From: a virus
Taxonomy: Duplodnaviria > Heunggongvirae > Uroviricota > Caudoviricetes
Length of the DNA: 40,547 nucleotides
Virus record (IMG/VR): IMGVR_UViG_2617270967_000014
Reading direction: 5' to 3' (one strand)
Shown here: positions 27,001-33,000 of the stretch, piece after piece
Position numbering within the stretch: position 1 is the stretch's first letter
How the letters are laid out: every line of letters begins with the position of its first letter
Made by a program: the position numbers

Positions 27001-30000
27001 TTTTCGAAATTCCTGTTCGGGCCAAAAAACGTCGATGCCTGCTGAACAAATTCAGTTCCCGCTTTCCCGGTAGCCTCCAGGTATCTTGCGTAACGCCTCA
27101 CGCCATCCAGCACGACATCCGGTGACACCCCTTCGCGTAATCTGGCCCTCCAGGCATTGAACGCGGATTTCTTCGGGTTTGACCCTGCCCGATGCGGATA
27201 TTCACGCCAGACCCGTTCGAACACGTCAGGATAATCAACTCGTCCCGCAGACGGTCCCGGCATCGCCCGGGTTAACCCAATCGGCTTCCCGCTCATCGCG
27301 GAATCGGCTTCAGGCTGCTGCGGTTGGCGTTGTTGCTCCGGTTCGACGATCAGCACCTGCTGCACACAACGCCCGGAATCTGCTTCCGGTGTCGTGCCAG
27401 CTGGTCCTGGACGTTCAGTCAGAACAGGACAAAAATCCCCCTGTGGGTCCGTGGCGATTTTTTCGCCATGGACCAGAAGGGTTTTATCCCTTTCCTGTTC
27501 TTGTTCCTGTTCCTGTTCTTGGCTTGAAAGGGGCTCTGAAGGGGCTTCAATTTTCCGACATGATTCACGTCTGACATCCAGGTGGAAATCATCCTTATAT
27601 CTATCATAAAAGGATGATAAAAAAGGATTTTCCAGCAACGCGGAATATTCATTTCTTACCCCAGCACAACGGTTATCGCCAGGTTTCAGCGATTCACCAA
27701 CCTGCCATGCTGCCATTTCATGCACCCATACAACCTCAGAATCATGGTCATAGCTGCAAAAACCAGCCTCGCAAGCCATTTGAAGCCCCTTAGAAGCCCC
27801 TTCAGGATCAAGTCCGGTTTCGTGAGCAATGTACAAAACAGGCAGGTAATAAAGGCCCAGCATATTGGAATGAGGCGAGGTCATCATATACAACGCCACT
27901 ACCATACTTTCCGGACCAGACTTCCTTAGTTTTCGCCCTGTATCGCCTAACCAGAACTGAGGTGAAATTGTTGCGTAATTACGCATAGTCCCCTCGCATA
28001 CAAGATTTACTCCATACCGCAGACGGTCCCGGTATCTCCCGGGTTAACCCAATCGGCTTCAGGCTGCTGCGGTTGGTGTGACTGCACATTGGTGTGACTG
28101 CACATCTTCACAGACGGTCCCGGTATCTCCGGGTTAACCCAATCGGCTTCAGGCTGCTGCGGTTGGTGTTGTTGCTGGCGAAATTCTTCCAGATGTGGCA
28201 GAATTATTCCCGTGTATTGCTCCATGCCCTGCCTGAATATCAGATGTTCATCAGGATTTGCTCAGAACGTCCGGCCCCAACCGGACGTTTTTTATTTGCA
28301 TGAACGTTAATGGCATGCTGGAAAGCCCGGCTGATCGGACTGATATCAGATGCCATCTGGAACGCGCATAAAATCGCCGCGATGTATCGCCAGTCGGTAC
28401 GACTGACCTTCGATTCATGGCAGCCAATCATCTTCGCCAGTCCCCTTTGCGTCAGAGCTGACAGGTTGATAAGTAAATCCGTTTCAGCGCGATCGATATC
28501 GCGCTGTGACAGTTTGCTGTAACTTGTTTGTGACATTTGTTAATTTTCCTATATTGATATGGGGTTAAGCGGCAATCCCCAATGGGTTTGCCACTGATGT
28601 TTGCTCACCCTGTTAGAGGTGAACGACCAGCAATGTTAAAGAGCGGTGTTACTTATTCAGCCTGGTTCGGATGAGGAAACAGGTGCGGTAAGTCCGGGCG
28701 AATTTCGTAAGCCTTAACCTGACCATTGGTGGCATTAACGATAGCGAAAACTTTTTCAGGAGAAACTTTTCCGCCTCGCAACCATTTATGAACAGCGGGC
28801 TGTGATACGCCGCAATCAGCTGCAAGTCGTTTTTGACTGCCAACAATATTCAAGGCTCGCTGAATCACTAAATTCATGAGCATACCTCTACAGCAAATAA
28901 AGCATAACCAAAAATAACATGAGTTATACACCAGGGCAATAACAATTGTTGTTTTACTTTTGATAACCGTGGTTATAGATTACAGGTATGAAAACATTCG
29001 CAGAAAGACTAAATGCCGCCATGAGTTCAGCCGGGTTGTCACAAGCACAACTTGCAGACATGGTGGGGGTATCACAACCAGCCATACAAAAGATGTCATC
29101 TGGTAAAACAACCGGATCACGTAAAATGGTCGAATTAGCCAACGCGTTAAGAGTTCGCCCTGAATGGCTAAGCTCTGGTATAGGGTCAATGAGACCACAG
29201 AGCGCAGAAGAGCCATCTAATGCTCGGGAATCATCTTTAAAAGCTATCGCCTGGGATGATCATCAAAATGATAATGAAGAATTTGTTGCGCTCCCCCTTC
29301 TAAATATTTCACTTTCAGCTGGCGGAGGAAGTTGTGCATTGGAGGAGTCCGCAGAATTCTCTCTAGTTTTTAGGCGCTATTACCTGAAAAAAATGGGAGT
29401 TCCAGAAAAAGCGGCAAAGTTGGTCAGGGTTGTTGGGCAAAGCATGGAGCCAACACTCCATGATGGTGATGTGGTGGGGGTAAACACGCAAGATACGAGC
29501 ATCAGGGATGGTAAAACATATGCAATTTGCCAAGCTGATTTGTTAAGGGTAAAAACGCTCATAGCCACGCCAACATCGGTAATTATCAGATCGATAAACC
29601 GCGAAGAGTATCCTGATGAAGTAATGAACAGAGAAGAATTCTACAAAAACGTAAGAATCATAGGGCGAGTGTTCTGGTCATCACATAGCTGGTAATCAGA
29701 CTCCAACTGAACTTTTGCTATAAGAACACTCACGAAGAACGGCCTTTTATTGTGCTCAATACCACCGATGGTAAACCATTCGCCAAGTAGCCAATTCATA
29801 AAATGCCATTTCTAAATCCCCCCGGCTCCAGTGCCGGGTTTTATTTACTTAATTACACAGTCGCATATCCTGAAGTAACACATCTATAGCTAACTTCACA
29901 GCGAGATCATCCAATTCATCATGGTGAAGCACTCGGATCATTCCCGCAATAGCATCTGCTGAAATAGCTTCCCCAGTAGCAATAACCTCAAGCAACGACA

Positions 30001-33000
30001 CCCCTAGAATTTCGACTACCCGCTGGTGCAACACACCAAATTCCCCTTCGATTAACATGCAATCACCCATAACAATCAGCCTTTCCCCCTTGAAAATATC
30101 ACGCGGATACCACAAAAAATAAAATATTTTTGTTATCAGTCATTTATAACGTTTTTCATAAAATGATAAATATAGTTATTGCACAACCAGATAACTTAGG
30201 TTATCTTCAATTCAACAGCAGGACGCTGGAAGCCAAACGGAACAGATTGGCCGGCTCTTTAACATTGATGGACTCTCAACCTAACCGTTGAGACCAAAAT
30301 CTAAGTGGTTTTGGGGATGACGCGAATTTCAGTTGCAAGGCCGCGATCGAGAAGAAAAACACCTCGACGCGTCATACACCAAAGCCACTTAAAGGAGACC
30401 ATCATGGTAACCATAATCTGGAAAGAATCCAAAGGTACGGCAAAAAGCCGCTATAAAGCTCGCAGGGAAGAACTTATTGCAGAGCGGCGCAGTAGTGAAA
30501 GACTGACACGGAAGATTGCGCTAAAGATCTCTGGTTGCGTCGGAGCAGACAAAGCAGTATCACTCGGAAGCCTTCGCTGCAAGAAGGCAGAAGAAGTCGA
30601 GAGTAAACAGAACCGTATTTACTACCGCAAACCACGCAGTGAAATGGGTGTGACTTGCTCAGGCCGCCAGAAACAACGCGGAAAATCAATTCCGGCTTAT
30701 TACGATTGAGGTTAATGATGAAGTTCAAATTGAACGATGAAGTTAAATGGTCAAGCTCATCAAACGGTGTAACGAAGGTAAAAATCGGGTTTATCGTCGA
30801 GGTGATTCCTCCTGGTGTCAACGTAAAAAAATTCGAACTAGGCCGTCTGCTAGATGCACCTGGCCTTCCGAGGAAAGAAGAGAGCTATATAGTTTGTGTA
30901 GGTTCAAGACCCGGATCTCGTGCCAAGCCAAAATATTACTGGCCGCGAGTTAATAACCTGCGTCGATTACAACAAAAAACTTGCGCCCTTAAAACTTGAA
31001 ATTCTTCAGGCCGCCGGAAAAATGCAGCTTAAACTGGACGAATTCATCGACTGTATGGATGAAATGAATAAAGCAGTTCAGAAGCTTAAAGAGCTGACCG
31101 CCTGATATTAATAAATTGCAACTACCGGAGTTAACTATGAATGAAACAGAACTGAAGCACATTATCGCCCTGCTTCTGGAAGATGCCAGACAGGTTTATC
31201 GACTTAGCCCAAATTCCGCAACGCAGGAACGCATCCGGATAGCGGAAACAGCACTGAAACAGGACAATGGAAACGGCATATCCAAATTTAGCGCCGCCAG
31301 TGAAAATGAAGTAATAGAAATAAACAGCAATATCAGCGACAGTTGCGTCGCTTACAGCCACCAAATAATTCGTGTAAGTGCAAGAATAATGGAAGTGATG
31401 GCAAGTGAGCTTGAAAAGAACAACATCAAGCCCACTGATTGTTGTTTAAGAACCGTAATGAACGTTATTTATTACTCGATGTTCCGAAGTCGCTAACAGC
31501 GTCGAGTTTTTCATTAAAAAATGATTCAAATGCATCGTAAAATACGGCAATAGCACCGCCCTTATCTACCGCGGCAGGAACTGCCTTTTGAGGTATATCT
31601 TTCTCCGTAAATTGTGTGTTGTAAGTATCGACAGCCAGCCGCATCAGAAACATCACTTTTTCTTCTTGTGTCATAAATTCACTCTCCTTACGGGGTTTGT
31701 AGTTGAGGAGTTCTCCACGGGTGAGGTGGAGATCGTGCGCCGGACACGGGTGAGTTCCTGCACTCTCAGTTTACTGAACAGACATTACCCTGAAAGCCAG
31801 GGTACTACACGAAAGCGCGAGGCGAAGACTCTTTCCCATAGAAGGATTGTCGTTAGATTTCTTCGACCGTGCGCTTCCGGTTGTGAATAACAACATTGCT
31901 GTGTGTAACCCTTGGCGGATATCGGTTTGCCGATTGCTGATGTCCGCCCTTTTTAAAGTGAATTTTGTGATGCGGTGAATGCGGCTATGCGCACGCGGAA
32001 CAGTTAAACCGACAGGATGTCACGGAAAGTCATCGTCCCCTGACCCGGCGTTAGTTGTTAACTGGTTAACGTCACCTGGAGGCACCAGGCACCGCATCAA
32101 CAAAGTTCATTTGTGAAAATGGAGATAATTATGATTGCTCATCACTTCGGAACTGATGAAATACCACGTCAGTGCGTGACGCCTGGCGATTATGTTCTTC
32201 ATGAAGGTCGGACATATATCGCTTCAGCAAACAATATTGAAAAGAGAAAACTCTATATTCGTAACTTCACAACAAAAACATGCATTACCGACTGCATGAT
32301 TAAAGTTTTCATCGGGCGCGATGGCTTACCCGTAAAAGCAGCGTCGTTGTGACGAGTAATAAAATACCCCTTCCATATCTGTAACAGACAAGCCGAAATA
32401 AAACCGCATTAATTATCAATCACGGAAAAATCAAAATGAAAGAACTTGCGCAAAATGAAATATTTTCCAAAACCAGTCCTGATGCAATAAATGAACTCAA
32501 AGAAATTGCAGAACGCATCAGTAAAATATGCAAAGAATACAAAATCGACTTTGTATTTTCTTTTTCAGTGCTTACAGAAGTTGGAAATAACGAATATAAG
32601 GACAGTCGTTTTGTTTTATGTGGGTTAAATGGCAAAACACCAAGCCCATATATTCATGCTGCACGTGAAGTTGTCAGAAGCAACATTGGAGTACAACAAA
32701 TCCATACACTTGCACAGGCTCTTGAGTTTGCAAGAGAAAATTCTGAGTGCGACTGCCCTGAATGCCAGCACGAAAAGGGAAAAACAACTCACAAAACAGC
32801 AAACCAGGCAACCTTCCACTGAAATAAAAATCCGGCAGCGCAGGCTACCGGATTTCTCCCTGCGTCACCGTATTCGGAGAAATCAGACAAAGGGCCGCTA
32901 ATTCTAATCCAGCCAGAGGTTTAAATACAATGAGCGCTGATAAACAGACTTTTGCACTACACTGCGAAGCAAAAAACGATAAAGTCAGAAAACGCCTTGG

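What the first reader, a model, noticed from the sequence alone, without database searches (positions are those of the whole stretch)
29849..30115. Antisense ORF between cI and N
An 88-aa ORF lies on the opposite strand between the cI terminator and the OL/PL region, where lambda has rexAB on the cI strand. If real it would be expressed against the flow of both immunity and early transcription, a common arrangement for lysogen-expressed cargo; it may equally be spurious.
Basis: inference. Interest (0 to 1): 0.4.

Follow-up and report, generated by a model that had tools for sequence, protein, structure and literature searches.

The report
Conserved small gene beside phage PL
The antisense ORF between the prophage repressor gene cI and the antiterminator gene N is a real, strongly conserved 69-residue gene with its own promoter; its relatives sit in this same slot in hundreds of lambda-like phages of enteric bacteria, and its function is still unknown.

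Summary
The ORF is present as described (29849-30115, minus strand). The real gene is shorter: 29849-30058, 69 aa. It is not spurious. It matches PHROG 3946 (E=5.6e-30), it evolves under strong purifying selection (median dN/dS 0.09), and its start codon is conserved across the family. In about 70 of 80 viral contigs it lies in the same place: divergent from N/PL and convergent with the cI operon. The true variable cargo lies between it and cI.

The gene carries its own conserved extended -10 promoter (TGaTATTTT, 30101-30093). This lies outside the OL operators and is kept across phages with different immunity. In Salmonella phage BTP1 the same promoter, leader and hairpin cassette carries a different small protein (DUF2767, labelled 'FumD'). 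That gene is transcribed in all 17 lysogen conditions published (TPM 17-53).

The product is an acidic three-helix protein. It is remotely similar to DUF2767 and to the YmgB/AriR connector proteins (hhalign E about 1e-4; best PDB fold match 2OXL, not significant alone).

Most likely it is a lysogen-expressed small protein that acts by binding a host regulator. The target is unknown. Interest is moderate.

The parts
29849..30058 (-). Real coding sequence: 69 aa plus stop, MLIEGEFGVLHQRVVEILGVSLLEVIATGEAISADAIAGMIRVLHHDELDDLAVKLAIDVLLQDMRLCN. Acidic (net charge -8, pI 4.4), three predicted helices.
   Evidence: Translation. PHROG 3946 E=5.6e-30, residues 21-85 of the 88-aa ORF match profile positions 2-67 of 67. 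RefSeq CDS in the identical record. A start codon lies 6 codons before the conserved Phe in 48 of 50 distinct upstream sequences. Median dN/dS 0.089. Helices 4-27, 34-44, 51-67. Charge.
30059..30115 (-). Not coding: it holds the leader and core promoter of the gene. An alternative ATG at 30070 would give 73 aa.
   Evidence: Homologues have no equivalent N-terminal extension. OP797663 annotates the 73-aa form.
30063..30067 (-). Shine-Dalgarno-like GGTGA, 4 nt before ATG 30058.
   Evidence: Read from the sequence. Other alleles have GAGG or AGGG at the same place. Inference.
30093..30101 (-). Candidate extended -10 promoter element TGaTATTTT (TG 30101-30100, hexamer 30098-30093). Predicted start near 30086.
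   Evidence: TGnNAnnnT lies 30-50 nt before the start codon in 45 of 50 distinct upstream sequences, against about 8% expected from background. The same element is present on the DUF2767 alleles. Not tested experimentally. The consensus scanner did not call it.
30114..30125 (-). Conserved T-rich block ATTTTATTTTTT over the -35 region of the candidate promoter.
   Evidence: TTTATTTT is present in 46 of 50 distinct upstream sequences at a fixed distance, although the operators next to it differ. Its role is unknown (a poor -35, an UP-like element, or a mosaic junction).
29821..29838 (.). G+C-rich hairpin shared by the two convergent units. It has a T-run only on the + strand, so it is a proper terminator for cI. 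For the small gene it has no U-tract.
   Evidence: and sequence. The hairpin is in the same position after the stop codon in BTP1 and L059.
30146..30204 (.). Left operators: OL3 candidate 30146-30159, OL2 30166-30179, OL1 30191-30204 (ATAAC-N4-GTTAT). They lie upstream of, and do not overlap, the small gene's core promoter.
   Evidence: The three perfect copies in the window are OR1, OR3 and OL1.
30179..30207 (+). Inferred PL (-35 TTGCAC 30179-30184, -10 TATCTT 30202-30207), divergent from the small gene.
   Evidence: Read from the sequence and overlapped by OL1/OL2. A weak match that the scanner did not call. Inference.
30134..30146 (+). IHF-consensus-like site TATCAGTCATTTA between OL3 and the small gene's promoter.
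   Evidence: 7 matches in the window against 3.5 expected, so this is weak. Noted only.
28988..29695 (+). cI repressor (HTH plus Peptidase_S24), convergent with the small gene. TAGATT lies 6 nt before the ATG, as at lambda PRM.
30404..30709 (+). N antiterminator, divergent from the small gene. nutL boxA 30254-30262 and boxB hairpin 30274-30293 lie upstream of it.
   Evidence: phrog_271 E=7.6e-35. Nut sites are annotated in related phages. Sequence.

Best explanation
This is a genuine 69-aa gene (29849-30058, minus strand) that forms a self-contained expression cassette at the edge of the immunity region. The cassette has its own sigma-70 extended -10 promoter just outside OL3, a short leader with a Shine-Dalgarno site, and a hairpin shared with cI. 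Because the promoter lies outside the operators and is the same in phages with different immunity, the gene is probably transcribed whether or not cI or N is active. That would mean moderate expression in the lysogen and immediately after infection. The product is a small, acidic, three-helix cytoplasmic protein. It is a distant relative of two families of about 70-90-aa enterobacterial proteins: DUF2767 (YdhZ, labelled 'FumD') and YmgB/AriR. I think it most likely works as YmgB does: as a non-enzymatic connector that binds a conserved host regulatory protein and changes lysogen physiology. YmgB's known targets are RcsC and SpoT. The target here is not known. Shown: the gene is real, its family, its fixed position, and the conserved promoter motif. 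Shown only for a sister allele: transcription in a lysogen. Inferred: that the promoter is independent of the repressor, and the connector mechanism.
For: Real gene: PHROG 3946 E=5.6e-30. About 610 clusters in Salmonella, Klebsiella, Citrobacter, Enterobacter, Serratia and others. The exact protein occurs on at least 1000 contigs. Median dN/dS 0.089 over 620 pairs, pS 0.63 against pN 0.09. Conserved start.

Fixed slot: N is divergent and cI convergent in about 70 of 80 IMG/VR loci and in annotated Salmonella, Klebsiella and E. coli phages. The gap between the small gene and cI varies from 67 to 2126 nt and is filled with 26 different ORF clusters.

Own promoter: the extended -10 is in 45 of 50 distinct upstream sequences although the operators alongside differ. 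No LexA-box pattern lies within 1.7 kb.

Expression: BTP1 gp37 (STMMW_03522) sits on the same promoter, leader, start and hairpin. It has TPM 16.8-53 in all 17 conditions of the D23580 lysogen. Its profile follows neither N (3.6-27.7) nor cI and bstA, which are above 100 in most conditions (PMC7067206 Table S5).

Kinship with DUF2767: hhalign E=7e-4 to 1e-4, aligned from residue 1. None of 300 column shuffles (two runs) reached the score. The family HMM scores DUF2767 members at a median 10.3 bits, against a 95th percentile of 3.6 for shuffles.

Kinship with YcgZ/YmgA/AriR: hhalign score 24.4, E=3.6e-4. None of 200 shuffles and none of 159 control ORFs reached it. HMM scores for YmgA and YcgZ exceed all reported shuffles of 500. 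The top Foldseek match among 350,542 PDB chains is YmgB, 2oxl_A.

How YmgB works: it activates the Rcs relay, reportedly by interacting with the cytoplasmic domain of RcsC, and it binds SpoT (PMC11709261, PMC3509220, PMC10704370).
Against: The protein does not reach any Pfam, NCBIfam or PADLOC threshold. The remote similarities are weak: hhalign probabilities are 26-54%, and the Foldseek E-value is 3 on a model with pLDDT 63.5. DUF2767 and YmgB do not match each other (E=0.27). The window's promoter version (TATTTT, with a different leader) is not the one measured in BTP1, and the consensus scanner calls no promoter here. The OL3 candidate is only about 25 bp from the -35 region, so control by the repressor is not excluded. 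No target, phenotype or protein-level evidence exists for any family member. A divergent subfamily is linked to nuclease genes, which points to another mechanism.
Confidence: 0.4

Rival explanations
1. Nuclease inhibitor or DNA mimic. The acidic small protein blocks a DNA-handling enzyme (restriction, RecBCD-like or another nuclease) early in infection and in the lysogen, or it protects the cell against a co-encoded nuclease.
For: The family has a median net charge of -11 and pI 4.15. In a divergent subfamily the gene follows a secreted nuclease gene. In three viral contigs (L081, fetched again as L091; L090; L092) it overlaps or abuts an Endonuclease_NS gene (PF01223, E=3e-47). In L074 it lies 94 nt after a PLD-type nuclease gene (PF13091, E=2e-28). 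These are two unrelated nuclease folds in the same slot.
Against: Only four viral contigs show this, all at a cargo-rich prophage end next to dinI genes. The window and the about 70 lambdoid loci have no adjacent nuclease. These phages carry separate Gam, Abc or Ral functions. There is no similarity to known DNA mimics in the fold searches.
Confidence: 0.15
2. Modulator of the genetic switch. It would be a small antirepressor, or a protein that tunes RecA-dependent cI cleavage or the stability of N or CII, and so sets the rate of spontaneous induction or the frequency of lysogenization.
For: It always lies next to the repressor operon and OL/PL. Small antirepressors of about 60-80 aa are well known, and some act on repressors of different immunity (PMC3121763; PMC10432266). 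The subfamily loci lie beside dinI homologues.
Against: The same protein goes with different operators, different repressors (with and without an S24 domain) and different N proteins or none. There is no LexA box and no partner transcription factor gene. Steady transcription in a stable lysogen fits an antirepressor poorly.
Confidence: 0.12
3. What matters is the transcription unit: a convergent unit plus hairpin that shields PL, N and kil from read-through out of PRM, or that produces antisense RNA against the 3' end of the cI operon. On this reading the peptide is secondary.
For: It is always convergent with the cI operon and shares its hairpin. The hairpin has no U-tract in the small gene's direction, so read-through into antisense cI or cargo is possible. 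The promoter, leader and hairpin are better conserved than the coding sequence, which can be swapped for DUF2767.
Against: Strong purifying selection on the amino-acid sequence (dN/dS 0.09) and a conserved start and SD show that the protein is selected. Many lambdoid phages manage with a terminator alone. This role could coexist with a protein function.
Confidence: 0.08
4. A small fumarate hydratase, as the 'FumD' label on the sister allele in BTP1 would imply.
For: BTP1 gp37 and many prophage copies are named 'fumarate hydratase FumD' by NCBI. K-12 ydhZ is listed as fumarase D. There is weak profile similarity to that family.
Against: The window protein fails NF007630 and PF10965. The invariant Y-x-E-M-C-R-x-V-G motif of DUF2767 is not kept; only the Gly is. 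A 69-aa three-helix protein in a phage immunity region is an unlikely enzyme. The label is spread by homology. From memory, its basis is a metabolomics screen, which I could not read here.
Confidence: 0.03
5. A chance ORF with no product.
For: ORFs of this length are common in all frames of the window. Several deposited phage genomes do not annotate it.
Against: All the conservation evidence.
Confidence: 0.01

Closest known systems
YmgB/AriR family (YcgZ, YmgA, AriR of E. coli; Pfam PF10798; PDB 2OXL)
   Same: Small cytoplasmic all-helical proteins of Enterobacterales. They share a core pattern, hh-x-h-G-x-x-V-x-x-h-h, turn, S/N-x-x-x-I-x-x-h-I. The profile similarity is above all controls. 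2oxl_A is the top PDB fold match. The ymg locus lies next to prophage e14, and its authors suggest it was acquired through a phage (PMC3509220).
   Different: There is no Pfam hit. The protein is 69 aa, against 78-90. It is a single gene with its own sigma-70-type promoter, not a sigma-S/BluR-controlled operon. It sits in a phage immunity region. No Rcs or SpoT effect has been tested.
DUF2767 / YdhZ, labelled 'fumarase D' (Pfam PF10965, NCBIfam NF007630), including BTP1 gp37 (STMMW_03522)
   Same: Same length (69 aa) and same predicted helix pattern. The similarity is collinear from residue 1. Prophage copies occupy the same slot on the same promoter, leader, start and hairpin cassette.
   Different: The protein is below both curated thresholds. 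The invariant YxEMCRxVG motif is not kept. Identity is about 28% over 43 columns.
Morons, meaning lysogen-expressed accessory cassettes in lambdoid prophages (for example rexAB and bstA downstream of cI)
   Same: It lies between two phage operons, has its own promoter and a hairpin, and is probably expressed in the lysogen.
   Different: It is not sporadic. It is the constant element beside a hypervariable cargo site. It lies on the strand opposite to cI and does not use PRM, unlike rexAB and bstA (PMC7067206, PMC8585504).
Small prophage antirepressors (GfoA/GftA of Gifsy phages; Qtip and smORF proteins)
   Same: Size, helical nature, and location near the repressor.
   Different: There is no LexA box and no partner transcription factor. 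It is not specific to one immunity. Its sister allele is transcribed steadily in a stable lysogen.

Membership tests
PHROG 3946 (phage protein family, function unknown) | Full-length match to the family HMM | tested here: met
   E=5.6e-30, 104 bits, profile positions 2-67 of 67.
DUF2767 / FumD (PF10965; NF007630) | Score above the curated cut-offs (20.7 bits for Pfam, 82 bits for NCBIfam) | tested here: not met
   No hit for the window protein or any of 16 family members scanned. BTP1 gp37 scores 116.8 and 103.7 bits; K-12 FumD scores 138.7 and 153.2 bits.
DUF2767 / FumD (PF10965; NF007630) | Invariant N-terminal motif Y-x-E-M-C-R-x-V-G | tested here: not met
   The window has H-Q-R-V-V-E-I-L-G; only the Gly is shared.
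DUF2767 / FumD (PF10965; NF007630) | Distant homology by profile-profile comparison | tested here: inconclusive
   hhalign E=7e-4 (tool) and 1.3e-4 (local), probability 26-54%. None of 300 column shuffles (two runs) reached the score. The reverse HMM test was positive for 91% of DUF2767 members.
DUF2767 / FumD (PF10965; NF007630) | Fumarate hydratase activity | not testable with these tools
   This needs an enzyme assay.
YmgB/AriR connector proteins (PF10798) | Match to the Pfam model | tested here: not met
   No PF10798 hit at E up to 10.
YmgB/AriR connector proteins (PF10798) | Distant homology in sequence and fold to 2OXL | tested here: inconclusive
YmgB/AriR connector proteins (PF10798) | Activates the Rcs relay or binds SpoT | not testable with these tools
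   This needs reporters and binding assays.
Moron (autonomous lysogen-expressed cassette) | Own promoter and terminator, with transcription in the lysogen | tested here: inconclusive
   The promoter motif is conserved. The hairpin is present but has no U-tract on this strand. Lysogen transcription is shown only for the BTP1 allele on the same cassette.
LexA-controlled small antirepressors | LexA box at the promoter | tested here: not met
   There is no CTG-N10-CAG between 28114 and 32752.
rexAB / bstA-type immunity-region cargo | Encoded downstream of cI on the cI strand and read from PRM | tested here: not met
   It is on the opposite strand in every locus.

The most novel reading that the evidence does not exclude
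Lambdoid phages of enteric bacteria keep a fixed connector slot beside OL. A repressor-independent promoter there drives one of at least two interchangeable small YmgB-like proteins (PHROG 3946 or DUF2767). The protein plugs the prophage into a host signalling hub such as RcsC or SpoT. This would change capsule, stress state or (p)ppGpp in every lysogen, and so give broad resistance to superinfection or link host state to the lysis-lysogeny switch. The 'fumarase D' annotation of the whole DUF2767 family would then be wrong.
Probability: 0.17. Interest if true: 0.75.

Novelty: new member of a known kind. Interest (0 to 1): 0.5.

Why it matters
The stretch between cI and N is among the best-studied regulatory DNA in biology, yet this gene has no name, no Pfam family and no paper. 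It is left unannotated in several deposited phage genomes (epsilon34, ST104, SPN9CC, PA28 and eleven annotated Stx1a phage records). Its sister allele in BTP1 is labelled as a metabolic enzyme. The gene is carried by Shiga-toxin phages of E. coli O157 and by common Salmonella and Klebsiella prophages. It is under strong selection and is probably made in every lysogen. If it is a YmgB-like connector, it would be a widespread route by which prophages retune host envelope or stringent signalling. The question can be tested directly with a deletion, a reporter and a pull-down. The analysis also separates the constant gene from the truly variable defence-cargo site next to it, which helps when mining that site.

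Tried and rejected
- **Family libraries.** Pfam, NCBIfam and PADLOC scans of the window protein and family members found nothing.
- **PDB by sequence.** Only chance hits (symportin, E about 0.05-0.15).
- **Wider searches.** The exhaustive search of 1.8 billion representatives added only four distant small proteins. The genome-contig scans gave 0 and 3 loci.
- **Rfam.** No RNA family at the locus.
- **Promoter scanner.** It calls nothing on the minus strand here. Its one nearby call (+ strand, 29895-29922, inside the CDS) looks like chance.
- **Alternative promoters read by eye.** TATAAA at 30148-30143, under OL3, is not conserved in other loci. A half-operator at 30123-30136 matches only 7 of 10 positions.
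- **Rac prophage.** I suspected YdaF or YdaG was the K-12 equivalent. They are on the other strand and belong to other families.
- **ORF 29641-29799 (-).** It overlaps the end of cI and has no family hit, so it is probably spurious.
- **N-specific or immunity-specific partner.** Rejected because the same protein goes with different N proteins, repressors and operators.
- **Literature.** No hits for the accessions, for DUF2767 or for PF10965. Papers mentioning ydhZ give no mechanism.
- **Canonical YmgB in phage contigs.** Only one locus, at the end of a single viral contig. YmgB proper therefore does not use the phage slot.

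
Full report
**Setting.** The window is a lambdoid prophage. 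The 711 bases around the finding are 100% identical to the chromosome of E. coli FORC_069. They are at least 99% identical in 50 of 5,426 complete E. coli genomes, and about 99.3-99.4% identical in Stx phages PA28, 06-3462 and a series of Stx1a phages. In window coordinates:
- cII is 28240-28536 (-) and cro is 28653-28877 (-).
- cI is 28988-29695 (+; HTH plus Peptidase_S24).
- N is 30404-30709 (+; phrog_271, E=7.6e-35).
- The operator repeat ATAAC-N4-GTTAT has three perfect copies in the whole window: OR1 28914-28927, OR3 28963-28976 and OL1 30191-30204.
- One-mismatch copies lie at OR2 28939-28952 and OL2 30166-30179. A two-mismatch candidate OL3 lies at 30146-30159.
- A hairpin with a T-run on the + strand ends cI at 29821-29838.

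**The observation.** The 88-codon ORF (TTG start, 29849-30115, minus strand) is there. Its length is not evidence, because one search lists many longer spurious ORFs. The evidence is conservation:
- The ORF matches PHROG 3946 at E=5.6e-30. Only residues 21-85 align, and they cover the whole 67-position profile.
- Homologues at 66% identity (P0009-P0011) and at 29-50% identity (Salmonella, Klebsiella, Citrobacter, Enterobacter, Serratia, Yokenella and others; about 610 clusters) are 66-70 aa long.
- A start codon lies exactly six codons before the conserved Phe in 48 of 50 distinct upstream sequences.
- In the window that start is ATG 30058, which gives 69 aa and is the RefSeq call. ATG 30070 (73 aa) remains possible.
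- Across 43 distinct coding sequences the median dN/dS is 0.089, with pS 0.63 against pN 0.09.
- There is no ORF on the opposite strand and no Rfam family at the locus.

The gene is real, and the chance-ORF reading is excluded.

**Position.** In every context examined the gene lies in the same place and orientation. Its start faces the start of the PL operon, and its end faces the end of the repressor operon. This holds for two Logan contigs. It holds for annotated phages 118970_sal4, epsilon34, ST11-VIM1phi8.2 and S107. It holds for about 70 of 80 IMG/VR loci, using a limited set of N and cI seed proteins.
- The distance to N is 160-400 nt in most loci.
- The distance to cI ranges from 67 to 2126 nt. 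That gap holds 26 different ORF clusters, all on the cI strand. They include a 307-aa ORF of the same length and position as bstA, ParA-like ATPases, lipoprotein-like ORFs and what looks like a HigB/HigA pair; only the P63C, ParA-like and bstA assignments rest on a tool result or database annotation.
- The variable rex-like cargo site is therefore next to this gene. The gene itself is the constant element. The window has no cargo: 153 nt separate the gene from cI.

**Expression signals.** Upstream of the start, sequences from phages with unrelated operators share the same elements:
- a T-rich block (ATTTATTTTT);
- about 12 nt further on, TGn followed by (C/G/T)AT(A/G)CT, which is an extended -10;
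- then a leader of about 31-34 nt with a Shine-Dalgarno site.

TGnNAnnnT lies 30-50 nt before the start in 45 of 50 distinct upstream sequences, against about 8% expected from background. In the window the element is TGaTATTTT (30101-30093). The T-block is at 30125-30114 and the SD is GGTGA at 30067-30063.

The core promoter lies outside the operators; the edge of OL3 is about 25 bp beyond the -35 region. No LexA-box pattern is nearby. An IHF-consensus match at 30134-30146 is noted but is weak. The hairpin after the stop codon has a U-tract only for cI, so read-through of the small gene's transcript into antisense cI cannot be excluded.

**A sister allele and expression data.** In Salmonella phage BTP1 the same slot holds gp37 (STMMW_03522), annotated 'fumarate hydratase FumD'. 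A DNA alignment shows that its T-block, extended -10, leader, GTG start and first codons match those of a PHROG 3946 allele, L059. Its downstream hairpin also matches that of L059. Only the body of the coding sequence differs.
- gp37 is a DUF2767 protein: PF10965 at 116.8 bits and NF007630 at 103.7 bits. It is 33% identical to E. coli K-12 YdhZ ('FumD').
- The other 79 IMG/VR loci with this DUF2767 type show the same slot, and most show the same promoter.
- Published strand-resolved RNA-seq of the D23580 lysogen gives STMMW_03522 TPM 16.8-53 in all 17 conditions.
- That is above the authors' expression threshold of 10. The profile follows neither N (3.6-27.7) nor cI and bstA, which are above 100 in most conditions. 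For example, in late stationary phase the values are 18 (gp37), 4 (N) and 14-35 (bstA, cI) (PMC7067206 Table S5).

The cassette promoter is therefore active in a lysogen. For the window's own version of the promoter this remains an inference.

**The protein.** It has net charge -8 and pI 4.4; the family medians are -11 and 4.15. It has no signal peptide or membrane segment. Three helices are predicted (4-27, 34-44, 51-67). Tertiary confidence is low (pLDDT 62.6 and 63.5), as is common for small proteins that fold as oligomers or on a partner. No curated family matches it.

Profile comparisons give two weak but reproducible links.
- **DUF2767.**
  - hhalign gives E=7e-4 with the tool and 1.3e-4 locally, aligned from residue 1 over 43 columns.
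  - The score is 25.6, against a maximum of 17.3 in 300 column shuffles (two runs).
  - The family HMM scores DUF2767 members at a median 10.3 bits, against 3.6 at the 95th percentile of shuffles.
- **YcgZ/YmgA/AriR of E. coli.**
  - hhalign score is 24.4, E=3.6e-4.
  - The maxima are 18.3 in 200 shuffles and 18.4 among 159 control ORFs from the window.
  - HMM scores of 12.1 bits (YmgA) and 9.1 bits (YcgZ) exceed all reported shuffles of 500.

Independently, the best Foldseek match among 350,542 PDB chains is YmgB, 2oxl_A. Its E-value of 3 and TM-score of 0.41-0.44 are not significant alone. DUF2767 and YmgB do not match each other.

I read this as probable distant kinship among three families of small helical enterobacterial proteins. 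Membership in either curated family is not shown. The invariant YxEMCRxVG motif of DUF2767 is not kept, so the 'fumarase' label should not be transferred.

**What it most likely does.**
- YmgB is a non-enzymatic connector. It activates the Rcs phosphorelay, reportedly by interacting with the cytoplasmic domain of RcsC (PMC11709261, PMC3509220). Separately, it binds SpoT and raises ppGpp (PMC10704370).
- Rcs activation and colanic acid give broad phage resistance (PMC7553319).
- The authors who studied the ymg locus suggest it was acquired through a phage.
- By analogy, the best-supported mechanism is a lysogen-expressed small protein that binds a conserved host regulator. A conserved host target would also explain why the protein is indifferent to the phage's immunity, its N type and its virion type.

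I put this at about 0.3-0.4. Reality of the gene is about 0.97. Autonomous expression in the lysogen is about 0.7.

**Rivals.**
- A divergent subfamily (P0012-like) lies at a prophage end, directly after a secreted nuclease gene. In three viral contigs (L081, fetched again as L091; L090; L092) it overlaps or abuts an Endonuclease_NS gene. In L074 it lies 94 nt after a PLD-type nuclease gene. Two convergent dinI genes follow.
- Two unrelated nucleases in one slot, together with the strong negative charge, make a nuclease inhibitor or DNA mimic a serious alternative (0.15).
- A switch modulator or antirepressor (0.12) fits the location. It does not fit the lack of immunity specificity, the absence of a LexA box or partner regulator, or steady expression in a lysogen.
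- An insulating or antisense transcription unit (0.08) may coexist with a protein function but cannot explain the selection on the protein.
- An enzyme (0.03) and a chance ORF (0.01) are unlikely.

**Novelty and verdict.** The gene is catalogued (RefSeq hypothetical protein, PHROG 3946) but undescribed. The following appear to be unreported in the literature I could search:
- its fixed position beside PL;
- its own conserved promoter;
- the interchangeable DUF2767 allele;
- the distant link to YmgB.

It is a new member of a known kind: a small accessory protein expressed from a prophage. It sits in an unusually constant position. Interest is moderate, at 0.5.

Noticed in passing
L099:1576-1785 (BTP1, NC_042346.1 27867-28076): BTP1 gp37 (STMMW_03522) is annotated as a 56-aa 'fumarate hydratase FumD'. 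The conserved cassette start is a GTG 39 nt upstream, which gives 69 aa. The enzyme name is spread by homology to many prophage copies.
   Followed up: partly
L081:2145-3195; L090 and L092:3157-4207; L074:2359-3195: A divergent subfamily of the small protein is coupled to secreted nuclease genes (Endonuclease_NS, with overlapping stop and start; or a PLD-type nuclease). Two convergent dinI genes follow, at a prophage end next to tail-fibre genes.
   Followed up: partly
loci L002-L088, between the small gene and cI: A hypervariable cargo site on the cI strand holds 26 ORF clusters. These include a 307-aa ORF matching bstA in length and position, ParA-like ATPases, a P63C protein, and ORFs that look like lipoproteins and a HigB/HigA pair. 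The window has none.
   Followed up: partly
window 28976-28990: The cI ATG (28988) lies 6 nt after TAGATT, the same geometry as lambda PRM. OR2 is centred about 42 bp upstream. This suggests a leaderless cI mRNA.
   Followed up: no
window 20191-20389 and 21776-21974: Two copies of a C4 antisense RNA, each with an isrK match and an a1/b1 target match. This is a P1/P7-type antirepressor control module, duplicated about 1.6 kb apart.
   Followed up: no
window 23838-24012, 16844-17049, 3335-3420: Rfam matches to sok (the antitoxin RNA of hok/sok), STnc100 and sRNA-Xcc1.
   Followed up: no
window 27300-28230: Repeated Gln/Pro-rich segments (QQPQQPEADS/W ... GLTR.(M/I)PGPSA) and an (EQ)n run lie in and just upstream of the 360-aa ORF 26904-27986, next to the replication genes. 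They may be DNA repeats or iterons.
   Followed up: no
window 29641-29799 (-): A 52-aa ORF antisense to the 3' end of cI has no family match and is probably spurious.
   Followed up: partly
P0085 (Klebsiella, 67 aa): One UniRef cluster of the PHROG 3946 family is already named 'DUF2767 domain-containing protein', although the protein does not reach the Pfam model here. This was the first hint of the link.
   Followed up: yes
window 30254-30293: nutL has a boxA-like GCTCTTTAA and a boxB hairpin, TCTCAACCTAACCGTTGAGA. The segment from nutL into N is 88-92% identical to phage 21, mEp235 and HK629, whereas the cI, small gene and OL segment is not. A mosaic junction therefore lies near 30215.
   Followed up: no
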